Source: a virus
Taxonomy: Duplodnaviria; Heunggongvirae; Uroviricota; Caudoviricetes
IMG/VR virus record: IMGVR_UViG_2522572023_000008
Direction: 5' to 3' (one strand)
Length of the DNA: 46,931 nt
Each line of letters starts with the position of its first letter. Position 1 is the stretch's first letter. This document shows positions 6,001 to 9,000 of this stretch, one piece after another. Position numbers: made by a program.

Positions 6001-9000
6001 TCAGCATGTCCCACAGGCACCAGGCAGGGTTGTTGCTGTATGCCGGTTTCAGGCTGCCGTCCCAGATGCCGCTGTACGTGCGTTTTTCCGGGTCATAGTT
6101 TGACGGCACCTGAATAATGCGACCGCGGATATGGTAGTTCACCGTCATCTGCTGGCCGCCGAACTGCTCCGCATCCACCTGCAGCCCCACAATGGCCGTG
6201 TTCGGGTAGCACTGTTTCACATCGATGATTTCGGTGTATGACGACCAGAGCGTCTTATTCTGCAGCTGGTCCGTGGTGCTGTCCGCCGTCTCCCTGACCA
6301 TCCGGATGTTAAAGGGCCGGGGCGGCAGATTATCCAGAATCACCGACGCCAGGAACTGCGAGGTGGTCTTGCCGTTAATGGTGACATCCTTTTCCGTCAT
6401 CCATTTACCACCACGCTCAAGCTGAATCAGCAGGCGGACAGACGTCGGGTTACGGTCACCCTTTGAGGTGGTCTCCACCAGTGACTGCACCCCGAAGGTA
6501 ACCCGCAGGCGGTCAATGTTCGCGGACGTAATGGTGCGCGTCACCGGCTTTGCCTTCGTCACTTCCACGCCCAGTCCGGTTTCAGCTCCGGAGGACTCAA
6601 AGCCTTCCGGTGGTGTCTGCTCCTGCTCCCCGGCACGCCAGACCGCTGTCACACCGTGTATCACGGGATTACCGTCCGTGTCCGTCAGCGGGGTTTTGTT
6701 CACCAGGATACTCTGCAGTCCCTTCACCGGACCTTCTATCGGTCCCTCACCAATCGCATCAATCACACTCATCATCTGCGTGGATTTGAGATTATCCTTC
6801 GCCTCACGCGGTGTGTGCCCCTTGCCGCCCCCTTTACCCACTCTGTCCCCCCTCTCCTGTCTGATGTCTGAATCTGTTTATGCCCAAAAAACAACAGGCA
6901 CCCCGGAGGATGCCTGTATCATGACTGAATAAAAATTCTGAATATCTTCACATTTTCACAAACTGACTGTGGCGCGTATAATTTCGCTGCGTTAGTGTTT
7001 TTTCTGCCCGAGTAACAAAAACAACTCCTTAACTCTAATCTTTGTCTGTCCCCGCAGCTCCGCGATCACTGCGGGATTTTTTTATTCTTTTTACCCCTGC
7101 CGCCCGATAACCACGACCTTTCCGCCCCCGCCTTCATCACGGGTACTGATGTCCTGGGATATACGGCGGGAGCCAACCAGCATTTCCCCGTAAGGCACCG
7201 GCATCGGGTTACCCTGGGCAATCATGTTGTCCAGCGACGAAAAGTACGTGTTCTGTCTGCCGTTATCCGTTGCGCTGTAATCCGGTGTTTTTGCCTTCGG
7301 GGCCAGCATCTGTGCCACACCACCCAGTATCATGCTGGCTCCAAGTGAAAACAGCATCGTGGTGGCAGAAAAACCACCGGCTGCCAGGGCTGAACCCCAT
7401 AACGCCATCGATGCCCCGGCAGTGAAGAAAGAGCCCACGATGGCTGCCGCCCCCAGCACAATCTGCAGTCCACCCTTTCCGGCCCCGGCCAGTCGCGGCA
7501 CAATGTGGATGACCGTTCCCTCACCCAGCTGTTCGTGAAGACGGGCGTACACCGCCTCCGGTGCCGTGTCATCACCGGCAATACGTATCTGGTACCAGCC
7601 TTCGTTCATCTGACGGCGGAATCCGGGCACCTGTAACGACAGCGCCCGGATGGCTTCCGCTGCCGTGTTCACATACAGGCTGAGGCGGCGGCCAAATCGT
7701 TGTAAATCCCCGTGAAGGCAGATGCGTGCCAGTGGCGGTGACGCCAGACAGAATGCGTTCGTCGTTGCCATTTTTCGGAATACCTCTCCCGTTTACTCAG
7801 TTGTTCAGGCAGATGGTGAAGCAGCTCACCGTTGCCGCAGTAAATGGCGGCATGGTTCGGTACCGAAGCACCAAAGCAGCACAGCAGAATATCGCCCGCC
7901 TGTGCAGAGGACAGGGGCACCCGGTAAAAGCCGGTGACCGCCATATTGTCCAGGTAAAGGTTCTGACCGTTGCGCCACCAGTCATCCTCGCGATGAAAAT
8001 CCGGCATTTCAGTCCCCGCCAGATGGTAAGCATCCCGGAACAGCGTGTAACAGTCCGTCACCCCGTGCTCAAAGCGCCGTCCTGTCAGATGTGGCACACA
8101 GCGGAATTTATGAATTTCCCCCCGGCAGACCAGCCACCAGGACAGTGCACTTTTTATCTGCAGCCGCCGGTCGGCCTCGCTCAGCCAGGGCAGACCACCG
8201 GGATGACTGTGGACCAGTGCCACAATCTCCCCCTGCATCTCTGCCCGCAGCCAGTCTTCCGGTGCGATACGAAAATACGCCTCCGGCTCTGCAGAAATAT
8301 TCACACAAGGGATATACCACTCCCCCTCCGGCGTGCTTATCACGAAGCCGCACGACTCCGCAGGCGCACACCGCCGGGCATGCGCCAGAATCGCTGATTC
8401 AGTCTGTGTCATAAACCGGGATTTACTGCGAAAGTTTATTAATGGAAAGGAAACCGCCAAAATTAGCCACCATGCCGCGCATCTCACACCCGCGCATGCA
8501 CTTGCTGCATCTGTCCTTACGGATATCCGTGGTGGGGTTGTCGAACTCATCCGCCACCGCAGGACCGTTATACCCGCATTCATCTCCCCGGTAATCCCAC
8601 ATACAGGTGTTCGCCAGCATGATGCGACCGGGAAACAGCGCTCCGTCCGTCTCCGTCGGTGTTGCCAGCACAAACGAGGCTGTCATGGCCGTCAGCTCTG
8701 ACATCTGCTCCACCACCCAGCGGTCTCTCAGCTCCTGCTCCGGGTCCGCTTCCGGATTGCCCGCCACAAAATTCACCGCATCCAGAAAACGGGCATACAC
8801 CCGGCGGCGGACCACCGTGGCCCCCACCAGGCTCTGCAGGTCCTCCGCCATTCCGGTGACCAGACCGAACAGATTGGACACCGTCAGCGACGGGCGGGCA
8901 CTGCTGCCCTTCCCGTTCATCTCAAAGCCACTGCCGTCAATCGGGTATGCCTGATATTCCCGCCCCTGCCAGGTAACCGCCTCCCCTTTTTCATTCAGCT

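What the first reader, a model, noticed from the sequence alone, without database searches (positions are those of the whole stretch)
6955..7086. Promoter-to-terminator unit antisense to the tail operon in an expanded I-J intergenic gap: candidate prophage sRNA
Lambda has about 60 bp between I and J; here the gap is 250 bp. On the plus strand, antisense to the late operon, sits a near-consensus promoter (TTCACA-16-TATAAT) followed about 100 nt later by a strong intrinsic terminator (7-bp GC stem cccgcag/ctgcggg plus T8). There is no ORF. The transcript would contain a C/A-rich single-stranded stretch (aacaaaaacaac) of the kind that can pair with GU-rich sRNA seed regions. Hfq-bound prophage sRNAs acting as anti-sRNAs have been reported in EHEC, and this looks like such a locus.
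Basis: partly seen in the sequence, partly recalled or inferred. Interest (0 to 1): 0.6.

Follow-up and report, generated by a model that had tools for sequence, protein, structure and literature searches.

The report
Known prophage small RNA PasB
The promoter-to-terminator unit between tail genes I and J is a real small-RNA gene, but it is a copy of PasB (EcOnc22-24 in EHEC), an Hfq-bound prophage sRNA already shown to pair with mRNAs rather than to sponge other sRNAs.

Summary
The 249-bp gap between tail genes I and J (both on the - strand) carries, on the + strand, an 11/12 sigma-70 promoter (6955-6982), no ORF, and a 7-bp GC stem followed by U7 (7051-7083).

It is not new. The Northern probe used to validate PasB in EPEC E2348/69 matches 7056-7078 exactly, and the window RNA is 91% identical to PasB. 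PasB is 83 nt, strongly reduced in a hfq mutant, and had 37 RIL-seq partners. The same gap in three EHEC Sakai prophages holds EcOnc22/23/24 (Hfq-CRAC peaks, ~85-nt Northern band).

The anti-sRNA reading is not supported:
- PasB had no sRNA partners in RIL-seq.
- No allele pairs with the GcvB seed better than shuffled sequence, whereas the AgvB control does. A true AgvB gene sits at 28102-28163.
- The C/A-rich stretch is kept across alleles only as an (A-R-N)3-5 run, which fits an Hfq-binding motif.

My re-analysis of 12 RIL-seq partners places the seed in the 32 nt before the terminator (z -5.9). It pairs with ribosome-binding sites and start codons (napF, tolC, caiF, yijD). The window allele has a 4-nt deletion in that seed. 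This is a known kind of element, of low interest.

The parts
6937..6952 (.). CRP-like palindrome TCTGA-N6-TCACA upstream of the promoter
   Evidence: It matches TGTGA-N6-TCACA at 9 of 10 positions. Both half-sites are invariant in 32 distinct gaps, while 2 of the 6 spacer positions vary. Binding by CRP is inferred, not shown. Four such matches occur in the window against 1.7 expected, so the argument rests on conservation.
6955..6982 (+). Promoter P1: TTCACA, 16-nt spacer, TATAAT (11/12). Predicted start near G6989
   Evidence: Found by the promoter scan. The -10 hexamer is kept as TATAAT, TATCAT or AATAAT in most alleles. The -35 hexamer is present only in alleles A and B.
6993..6998 (+). Second, weak -10-like hexamer TAGTGT (TAnnnT) inside the near-invariant GCGTTA block; possible promoter P2
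   Evidence: TAnnnT is kept in every allele as TAATTT, TACAGT, TACTTT or TACATT. The annotated EPEC PasB 5' end lies 6-7 nt downstream of it. This is inference and remains unresolved.
6989..7083 (+). Predicted primary transcript from P1 (95 nt)
   Evidence: Follows from promoter and terminator geometry. Folding gives only the terminator as a stable, conserved structure.
7005..7083 (+). Equivalent of the annotated 83-nt PasB of EPEC E2348/69 (79 nt here because of a 4-nt deletion)
   Evidence: PasB is NC_011601.1 1466343..1466261, read. The alignment shows 4 substitutions and one 4-nt gap. The Northern probe matches 7056-7078 exactly.
6998..7003 (+). U6 run near the 5' end
   Evidence: A T5-T9 run is present at this place in nearly all alleles. 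In the 95-nt form it pairs with the A-rich run in this allele only.
7011..7025 (+). (A-R-N)5 run AGU AAC AAA AAC AAC; proposed Hfq distal-face motif. This is the 'C/A-rich stretch' of the finding
   Evidence: At least 3 consecutive A-R-N triplets sit at the same aligned position in all 14 alleles despite different sequences. This allele has 5, reached by 0 of 2000 shuffles. The run is not complementary to RIL-seq partners or to GcvB R1.
7026..7050 (+). Seed region UCCUUAACUCUAAUCUUUGUCUGUC: an anti-SD CUCC followed by the target-pairing stretch. It carries a 4-nt deletion relative to EPEC PasB
   Evidence: The homologous 32 nt of EPEC PasB are the only part enriched for complementarity to 12 RIL-seq partner fragments (z -5.95, 0 of 100 shuffles). 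The window allele is weaker (z -2.8). Zhu et al. also place the PasB seed just upstream of the terminator.
7051..7083 (+). Intrinsic terminator and Hfq-binding 3' module: CCCGCAG, 11-nt loop, CTGCGGG, A, U7
   Evidence: The stem is invariant in 14 alleles with a variable loop. It is 100% paired in 10 diverse alleles, with one compensatory G-C to A-U change.
7091..7672 (-). Tail assembly gene I (flank). Its stop codon is 7 nt from the end of the sRNA U-run
   Evidence: Pfam Lambda_tail_I. The identical RefSeq locus is annotated as a tail assembly protein.
3365..6841 (-). Tail tip / host specificity gene J (flank)
   Evidence: ORF list. The N-terminus reads [20 protein letters not shown]. RefSeq annotates it as gpJ.

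Best explanation
This is a copy (allele) of the prophage small-RNA gene known as PasB in EPEC and as EcOnc22/23/24 in EHEC. It is a self-contained 'moron' inserted between tail genes I and J and transcribed against the late operon, so it can be made in the lysogen.

The RNA is ~80-95 nt. It ends in a GC hairpin plus U7, which binds Hfq, and it carries an internal (A-R-N)n run that probably contacts the distal face of Hfq.

It acts in trans. The ~25-30 nt between the A-R-N run and the terminator pair with mRNAs, often across the Shine-Dalgarno sequence and start codon, which should block translation.

What is shown in homologues: expression, size, Hfq dependence and mRNA partners. What is shown here by computation: identity, conservation and the position of the seed. 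What is inferred: translational repression, the role of the A-R-N run, CRP control, and activity of this particular allele, whose seed differs by a 4-nt deletion.
For: Identity:
- The PasB Northern probe (PMC8550237 table S6) matches 7056-7078 exactly and nowhere else.
- The window RNA is 91% identical to PasB, with a 43-nt identical 3' block.
- The gene order is the same, I then sRNA then J.

Experimental data on homologues:
- PasB was validated by Northern blot. Its level in the hfq-mutant comparison has log2FC -6.8 and -2.4.
- PasB had 37 RIL-seq partners, 30 of them CDS/5'UTR, and was RNA2 in at least 98.7% of chimeras.
- The Sakai I-J gaps of Sp11, Sp14 and Sp15 hold EcOnc24, EcOnc23 and EcOnc22. 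EcOnc22 gives a ~85-nt band and is destabilised without hfq.
- These gaps rank 48 and 49 among Hfq-crosslinked intergenic regions, with over 98% of reads antisense to the tail genes.
- After correcting a coordinate offset of about +140, the peaks fall on the PasB-like RNA body.

Conservation:
- Gap homologues occur in 1799 of 5426 complete E. coli genomes.
- Promoter, terminator and U-run are kept while the body varies.

Mechanism:
- Only PasB nt 33-64 are enriched for complementarity to 12 RIL-seq partner fragments (sum of best helices -137 versus -97 +/- 6.6).
- napF: 16 bp over the SD and the GUG start, -22.5 kcal/mol. tolC: 11 bp over -4..+7. caiF: 10 bp at +3..+12. yijD: 11 bp over the SD.
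- A-R-N triplets are kept in all alleles.
Against: - No expression data exist for this allele. The 4-nt deletion and 4 substitutions fall in the mapped seed and abolish the napF, tolC and caiF pairings, so its targets, if any, differ from those of EPEC PasB.
- The consensus promoter predicts a 95-nt RNA, but the annotated 5' end in EPEC lies 15-16 nt further downstream. The start site or 5' processing is therefore unresolved.
- No regulatory outcome (repression or activation) has been measured for any PasB or EcOnc22 target. The review PMC7873438 lists the targets as unknown.
- There is no Rfam family for it.
- Covariation support is minimal: one compensatory pair.
Confidence: 0.85

Rival explanations
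1. Anti-sRNA (sponge). The C/A-rich stretch would mimic mRNA targets and titrate a GU-rich core sRNA such as GcvB, as AgvB does.
For: The stretch AACAAAAACAAC (7014-7025) superficially resembles the CA-rich AgvB seed. Anti-sRNAs exist in the same kind of prophage, and one (AgvB) is in this window.
Against: - PasB had 0 sRNA partners among 37 in RIL-seq. The GcvB entry there has a single sRNA partner, and the gcvB::sroC chimera is the one visible.
- Pairing with GcvB R1 gives dG -10.7, with 77% of shuffles as good and 7 contiguous pairs at most. AgvB gives -19.5, with 2% of shuffles as good and 14 contiguous pairs.
- Alleles B, C and D replace the C residues (AUAAGAAUAAU, AAAAACAAAAC, GAAAAAUAAC) while keeping A-R-N.
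- The unit does not share the location downstream of P_R', the 51-60 nt length or the conserved 3' region of AgvB, AsxR and EcOnc03.
Confidence: 0.04
2. The main role is within the phage. One version is cis-antisense action on the I-J junction of the late tail mRNA. The other is pairing with another mRNA of the same prophage. The window allele's seed matches a 12-nt repeat in the replication gene.
For: - The RNA is fully complementary to the late transcript between I and J, which follows directly from the sequence.
- The window-allele seed AUCUUUGUCUGU(C) pairs (12-13 bp, one G.U) with each of five tandem ACAGAUAAAGAU units in the sense strand of the O-like replisome-organizer gene (37832-37881).
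- These are the only non-self sites of at least 12 bp in the window. Among 1000 shuffled seeds, 0.3% reach 6 sites.
Against: - The sRNA does not overlap the J ribosome-binding site, which is about 150 nt away.
- The late operon is silent in lysogens, where PasB was detected.
- All RIL-seq partners seen are trans mRNAs, mostly from the core genome.
- The repeat match was found post hoc. It is effectively one event (2.9% of shuffled seeds hit a cluster of at least 3), and other alleles do not match it.
- The association between this allele and this type of O gene could not be tested.
Confidence: 0.1
3. This particular copy is a decaying or inactive allele. The gene family is real, but the 4-nt deletion in the most conserved seed core (AAUCUUCAU) has inactivated it.
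For: The deletion removes the UUCA of the family-wide core. Complementarity to EPEC PasB partners falls from z -5.9 to z -2.8.
Against: - Promoter (11/12), terminator and U7 are intact.
- The identical 86-nt allele occurs in 39 complete genomes of varied source and serotype and in several IMG/VR contigs.
- The same AAUCUUUGUCUG seed occurs on different 5' backgrounds (L216, L309). That looks like a maintained, recombining variant rather than a one-off lesion.
Confidence: 0.08

Closest known systems
PasB (E2348CN_0006), pathogenicity-associated sRNA B of EPEC E2348/69 (Pearl Mizrahi et al. 2021, PMC8550237; Zhu, Shabalina & Storz 2026 preprint)
   Same: - Same locus: the I-J gap of a lambdoid prophage, antisense to the tail genes.
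- Same promoter block, same terminator and U7.
- 91% identity over the RNA, with the Northern probe site identical.
   Different: - Four substitutions and a 4-nt deletion, all inside the region I map as the seed, plus one extra C after the U-run.
- The J-proximal part of the gap differs, although it still holds a hairpin.
EcOnc22 / EcOnc23 / EcOnc24 of EHEC O157:H7 Sakai (Tree et al. 2014, PMC4104026, table S2; review PMC7873438)
   Same: - Same position in the I-J gaps of Sp15, Sp14 and Sp11, and same strand relative to the tail genes.
- Same upstream palindrome, U-run, A-R-N run, CUCC, UUAAUCUUCAU core and identical terminator stem.
- Hfq-bound, ~85 nt.
   Different: - Only 74% identical to the window RNA. 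The longest exact word shared with PasB is 15 nt.
- No consensus -35; the -10 is AATAAT.
- In the papers I could search, nobody links EcOnc22-24 to PasB. The link made here rests on alignment and on a coordinate offset that I inferred.
AgvB / AsxR anti-sRNAs (Tree et al. 2014; Rfam RF02702, RF02703)
   Same: Short Hfq-binding RNAs carried as morons in lambdoid prophages of pathogenic E. coli. AgvB is in this same window at 28102-28163.
   Different: - Different locus: downstream of P_R', convergent with an STnc100-like RNA.
- Different length (51-60 nt).
- Their seeds mimic mRNA targets and their partners are sRNAs. PasB's partners are mRNAs.
Class II Hfq-dependent sRNAs such as ChiX and MgrR (Schu et al. 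2015; from my own knowledge)
   Same: An internal (A-R-N)n run combined with a terminator U-tail, and strong dependence on Hfq for stability.
   Different: Which Hfq faces bind PasB has not been tested. The class assignment is inference only.

Membership tests
PasB / EcOnc22-24 (I-J gap prophage sRNA) | Lies between tail genes I and J of a lambdoid prophage, on the strand opposite to them | tested here: met
   I is at 7091-7672 (-) and J at 3365-6841 (-), with the unit on +. The order is the same in E2348/69 and in Sakai Sp11/14/15.
PasB / EcOnc22-24 (I-J gap prophage sRNA) | Sequence homology to the validated PasB RNA, including the site of the published Northern probe | tested here: met
   The probe AATCCCGCAGTGATCGCGGAGCT, reverse-complemented, matches 7056-7078 with 0 mismatches and is unique in the window. 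Identity is 91% over the RNA.
PasB / EcOnc22-24 (I-J gap prophage sRNA) | Own promoter, and an intrinsic terminator with a U-tract of at least 7 | tested here: met
   An 11/12 promoter, a 7-bp stem and U7, conserved across alleles.
PasB / EcOnc22-24 (I-J gap prophage sRNA) | Transcript of ~83-85 nt that depends on Hfq for stability | not testable with these tools
   Shown for the EPEC and Sakai homologues only. The predicted length here is 95 nt from P1, or 79 nt from the annotated-equivalent 5' end.
PasB / EcOnc22-24 (I-J gap prophage sRNA) | [quoted passage not shown] | tested here: inconclusive
   Supported for EPEC PasB by my complementarity test (z -5.95). The window allele's seed is altered and scores only z -2.8 on the EPEC partner set.
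Prophage anti-sRNAs (AgvB / AsxR type) | The principal Hfq-dependent partner is another sRNA whose seed it mimics as a target | tested here: not met
   PasB has 0 sRNA partners in RIL-seq. Its complementarity to GcvB R1 is at chance level, while the AgvB control passes.
Prophage anti-sRNAs (AgvB / AsxR type) | Encoded downstream of P_R' in a convergent sRNA pair, 51-60 nt long, with the shared ~42-nt 3' region | tested here: not met
   The locus is different. There is no Rfam AgvB or AsxR hit in the gap even at E<=10. The true AgvB is at 28102-28163.
Any Rfam 15 family | Score at or above the gathering threshold | tested here: not met
   No hit in 6700-7250 exceeds 21.5 bits, and all are below threshold. 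PasB has no Rfam model.
Class II Hfq sRNAs | (A-R-N)n motif together with a 3' U-tail | tested here: met
   Five A-R-N triplets at 7011-7025 and U7 at 7077-7083. The motif is kept in all alleles.
Class II Hfq sRNAs | Stability and function depend on the distal-face residues of Hfq | not testable with these tools
   Needs Hfq Y25D, Q8A and R16A mutants.
CRP-activated promoter | TGTGA-N6-TCACA site at a class I (-61.5) or class II (-41.5) position | tested here: inconclusive
   The site matches 9/10 with invariant half-sites. Its centre at 6944.5 lies at -44.5 from the P1 start, but at -61.5 from the start implied by the annotated PasB 5' end. PasB is higher in overnight static LB than in exponential DMEM cultures (conditions), which is compatible but not specific.

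The most novel reading that the evidence does not exclude
PasB and EcOnc22-24 may be only two alleles of a much larger I-J-gap sRNA family, found in about a third of complete E. coli genomes and in up to 10 copies per genome.

In this family a fixed chassis is recombined with interchangeable seeds, so each prophage would bring a different regulon. The chassis is a CRP-like upstream site, the GCGUUA block, a U-run, the (A-R-N)n run, and the terminator with U7.

The window allele's seed, created by a 4-nt deletion, would then be re-targeted. One candidate target is the 5x repeat in the prophage's own replication-initiator mRNA.
Probability: 0.3. Interest if true: 0.4.

Novelty: already known. 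Interest (0 to 1): 0.15.

Why it matters
For the scan, this is a true positive that needs no follow-up as a discovery. The sRNA was found by Hfq-CRAC in 2014 and by RIL-seq in 2021, and its distribution was surveyed in 2026.

Three by-products may be useful to people who work on it:
1. PasB (EPEC) and EcOnc22/23/24 (EHEC) are the same gene family. Word-size-28 BLAST surveys cannot recover the alleles I compared that diverge most from PasB: B, C and D share exact words of only 25, 17 and 15 nt with it.
2. The published RIL-seq partners point to a seed (UCCUUCACAUUGAUCUUCAUUUGU in EPEC) that covers ribosome-binding sites. The original study reported no target motif for PasB.
3. Alleles differ precisely in that seed, so results from one strain should not be carried over to another.

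Tried and rejected
- **Rfam.** The gathering-threshold scan of the whole window and the permissive scan of the gap found no family for this RNA.
- **Genome-contig scan.** I used the terminator alone (CCCGCAG-N5-20-CTGCGGGATTTTTT). I therefore could not measure the spread beyond E. coli. In the phage collection every hit is an Escherichia, Enterobacteria or Stx-converting phage.
- **Conserved 5' structure.** RNAalifold finds only the terminator. Single-sequence folds of six alleles disagree with each other, and z-scores for this allele are weak at -1.2 to -1.4. The U-run:A-run hairpin seen in this allele is not general.
- **Full-length duplex prediction against GcvB.** It gave long loopy duplexes no better than shuffles and was uninformative. 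I replaced it with a test restricted to R1, with AgvB as the positive control.
- **Searching supplementary tables for phrases across tabs.** This found nothing. Searching by PasB coordinates worked.
- **Association between the window-type seed and the O-gene repeat array.** The phage collection holds no exact copy of this allele, and the E. coli hit lists are truncated. The test was not possible.
- **HnrS (EcOnc10-12).** I checked whether this recently characterised multicopy prophage sRNA is the same thing. It is a different locus and a different RNA.
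Full report
**What is in the sequence.** The finding lies in the gap between two tail genes on the - strand. Gene I (7091-7672 as annotated in an identical RefSeq locus; Pfam Lambda_tail_I) ends at 7091. Gene J starts with GTG at 6841. The gap is 249 bp, against 60 bp in phage lambda. On the + strand the scan finds TTCACA-16-TATAAT at 6955-6982, an 11/12 match. Downstream lies the hairpin CCCGCAG / CTGCGGG (7051-7057 and 7069-7075, 11-nt loop), followed by A and T7 (7077-7083). 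The run is T7, not T8. No + strand ORF overlaps the unit.

**Identity.** Rfam has no family for the gap, but the literature does. Table S6 of Pearl Mizrahi et al. 2021 (PMC8550237) lists PasB: NC_011601.1 1466343..1466261 on the - strand, 83 nt, prophage PP6, between E2348C_1436 and E2348C_1437. Its Northern probe is AATCCCGCAGTGATCGCGGAGCT.
- The reverse complement of that probe matches window 7056-7078 exactly, and nowhere else in the window.
- I read the E2348/69 locus directly. It is the same I-sRNA-J arrangement.
- The window RNA is 91% identical to it. The differences are 4 substitutions, one 4-nt deletion and one extra C.

**Experimental record for PasB.** In that study PasB was confirmed by Northern blot. 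It was more abundant in overnight static LB than in exponential DMEM cultures (growth conditions). In the hfq-mutant comparison its log2 fold changes were -6.8 and -2.4. It ranked 15th by number of RIL-seq interactions.

**Link to EHEC.** Table S2 of Tree et al. 2014 (PMC4104026) lists EcOnc22 (Sp15, ~85-nt Northern band, destabilised without hfq), EcOnc23 (Sp14) and EcOnc24 (Sp11) as homologues of one another.
- All three coordinates fall in the I-J gaps of those prophages, on the strand opposite to the tail genes.
- Their coordinates refer to an older genome version. AgvB1 shows an offset of +137 to +146 at 1.94 Mb. EcOnc06/STnc100 requires +99 to +227 at 3.49 Mb.
- With an offset of about +140, the 60-nt Hfq peaks cover the PasB-like RNA body (gap positions ~163-222 of 240) rather than the J-proximal spacer.
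- The two gaps listed in table S1B rank 48 and 49 among Hfq-crosslinked intergenic regions, with more than 98% of reads antisense.
- The Sakai RNA is 74% identical to the window RNA but shares all of its landmarks.
- Neither the PasB papers nor the one review that names EcOnc22-24 connects the two names.

**Family anatomy.** I sampled I-J gaps without reference to the sRNA by fetching 80 viral contigs through the I protein, which gave 33 distinct sequences for the PasB part of the gap.
- All but one distinct gap sequence (L063) carry the module.
- Near-invariant or invariant: an upstream palindrome TCTGA-N6-TCACA, the block GCGTTA, the terminator arms and the U-run. The -10 hexamer is nearly so.
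- Variable: the RNA body, which falls to 0.72-0.77 mean column identity. At least four body types exist, 69-77% identical to each other.
- The only consensus structure is the terminator. Folds of the 5' part differ between alleles.
- In ten diverse alleles the stem is 100% paired, and the most divergent one changes G-C to A-U on both sides.
- Homologues of the gap occur in 1799 of 5426 complete E. coli genomes, with a median of 2 and a maximum of 10 places per genome. In the phage collection they occur only in Escherichia, Enterobacteria and Stx-converting phages.
- The gap is a moron site. Related phages add a SodC gene, a second tandem sRNA module or another 180-bp insert.
- The J-proximal part of the window's gap holds a hairpin plus U-tract in the late-operon direction (6917..6887). 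Lambda's 60-bp spacer has one too. The PasB module (~6926-7090) is therefore the added DNA.

**The anti-sRNA idea.** Four tests speak against it.
1. PasB has 37 unique RIL-seq partners: 0 sRNAs, 30 CDS or 5'UTR and 4 3'UTR/IGR. It is the second RNA in 100% and 98.7% of chimeras, the signature of a conventional sRNA.
2. The partners I could read are napF, map, the rpoS leader, hflX, fabR, bfpB, bfpI, ftsZ, ler, perB, tolC, caiF, gshA and others.
3. Against the GcvB R1 seed, taken from MG1655, the positive control AgvB gives 14 contiguous pairs and -19.5 kcal/mol, in the top 2% of shuffles. The A-rich segments of four PasB alleles give -10.7 to -12.3, and 34-77% of shuffles do as well.
4. The stretch is C/A-rich only in this allele type. 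What is kept everywhere, at the same aligned place, is a run of 3-5 A-R-N triplets. That is the motif Tree et al. found at Hfq binding sites (abstract), and from my own knowledge it is the distal-face motif of class II sRNAs.

**Where the seed is.** I fetched 12 partner fragments from NC_011601.1 with 60-nt flanks. For each part of PasB I summed the best contiguous helix over the fragments and compared the sum with dinucleotide-shuffled targets.
- Only nt 33-64 (CAACUCCUUCACAUUGAUCUUCAUUUGUCUGU) stand out: -137 versus -97 +/- 6.6, z -5.95, reached by 0 of 100 shuffles.
- The U-run and A-rich part (z +0.8) and the terminator (z +0.9) do not stand out.
- napF pairs over 16 bp covering the SD and the GUG start (-22.5 kcal/mol). 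tolC pairs over 11 bp across -4..+7. caiF pairs over 10 bp at +3..+12. yijD pairs over 11 bp across its SD. ler pairs over 9 bp inside the CDS (with gene positions).
- This fits translational repression by occlusion of the ribosome-binding site. That outcome is inferred, not measured.
- It agrees with the suggestion by Zhu et al. that the seed lies just upstream of the terminator.
- On the same partner set the window allele scores z -2.8, and alleles B, C and D score -0.8 or weaker. Alleles probably have different targets.
- In the window, the 4-nt deletion removes part of the family's most conserved core (AAUCUUCAU becomes AAUCUUUG).
- The identical allele is nevertheless present in 39 complete genomes, and the same seed occurs on other 5' backgrounds. 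I therefore regard it as a maintained variant.

**Open points.**
1. *The 5' end.* P1 predicts a start near 6989 and a 95-nt RNA. The annotated EPEC 5' end corresponds to ~7005, right after the U-run and 6-7 nt after a weak but universally kept TAnnnT hexamer (6993-6998). The explanation is either a second promoter or 5' processing.
2. *The upstream palindrome.* It matches the CRP consensus at 9/10 positions with invariant half-sites. It lies at -61.5 from the second candidate start but at -44.5 from the first. The higher PasB level in overnight LB cultures is compatible with CRP control but not specific to it.
3. *The match in the replication gene.* The window allele's seed is complementary to each unit of a 5.9x 12-nt repeat in the sense strand of the prophage's O-like replication gene. 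The match was found post hoc, and I could not test for association.

**Verdict.** This is a correct detection of a real small-RNA gene that is already known (PasB / EcOnc22-24). The sponge mechanism proposed for it is not supported. The PasB region and the O-gene region of the window are both 100% identical, with the same 30,775-bp spacing, to E. coli O145:H28 RM12761 and RM13516. These strains would be the natural hosts for testing this allele.

Noticed in passing
window 28102-28163 (+) and 28164-28354 (-): A perfect AgvB gene (Rfam RF02702, 96.5 bits), the real anti-GcvB sRNA, lies convergent with an STnc100/PasD-like sRNA (RF02076, 143.9 bits). This is the sRNA 'dyad' described downstream of P_R' in EHEC prophages.
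   Followed up: partly
window 33675-33849 (-), 41412-41463 (+), 29130-29203 (-), 29307-29379 (-), 45954-46040 (-): The same prophage also carries a sok antitoxin RNA (hok/sok), DicF and three tRNA genes.
   Followed up: no
window 6887-6917 (-): A 10-bp hairpin ACAGGCAUCC-UCCG-GGGUGCCUGU followed by UGUUUUUUGG, in the direction of the late operon, sits between I and J about 45 nt before the J start. The stem is kept in Sakai and EPEC with different loops. Lambda's 60-bp I-J spacer has an analogous hairpin plus U-tract. Its role is unknown; it could be a terminator read through by Q-modified polymerase, or an mRNA stabiliser.
   Followed up: partly
window 6937-6952: A CRP-like palindrome TCTGA-ATATCT-TCACA upstream of the sRNA promoter. 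The half-sites are invariant in all alleles, including the paralogous tandem module, and some spacer positions vary. It is not mentioned in the PasB papers I could search.
   Followed up: partly
window 37810-37880 (- strand sense; O-like gene 37209-38321): A 12-nt unit ACAGATAAAGAT repeated 5.9 times encodes TDKD repeats next to GTCACG iterons in the replisome-organizer gene. Each unit is complementary (12-13 bp, one G.U) to the window-specific PasB seed AUCUUUGUCUGU(C). These are the only such sites in the window. This may be chance.
   Followed up: partly
L064 and L063 (I-J gaps of ~900 nt in related viral contigs): The same gap holds a Cu/Zn superoxide dismutase (SodC, Pfam PF00080, E 8e-32) on the sRNA strand, with its own terminator, just upstream of the PasB module. 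In L063 the PasB promoter is replaced, so the PasB body follows the sodC terminator directly.
   Followed up: yes
L212 9840-10150, also L227, L253, L267, L287: Some phages carry two tandem sRNA modules in the I-J gap, 179 bp apart. The J-proximal one has the same upstream palindrome, an A-rich run and AACUCCUUAAGG, but a different terminator (CUCCCG...CGGGAG plus U6). It is a paralogue of PasB.
   Followed up: partly
L075-type gaps (~340 nt; the commonest type among the 80 viral loci): The J-proximal hairpin region is replaced by about 180 bp ending in a strong + strand terminator (CCCCGGUAUC...GAUACCGGGG followed by UUUUCUUUC) just upstream of the PasB promoter. This suggests a second + strand transcription unit. 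There is no ORF.
   Followed up: no
L258: One contig has an insertion that breaks the PasB promoter immediately after the TTCACA -35. From the inserted sequence I judge it to be an IS3-family element, but I ran no test of that.
   Followed up: no
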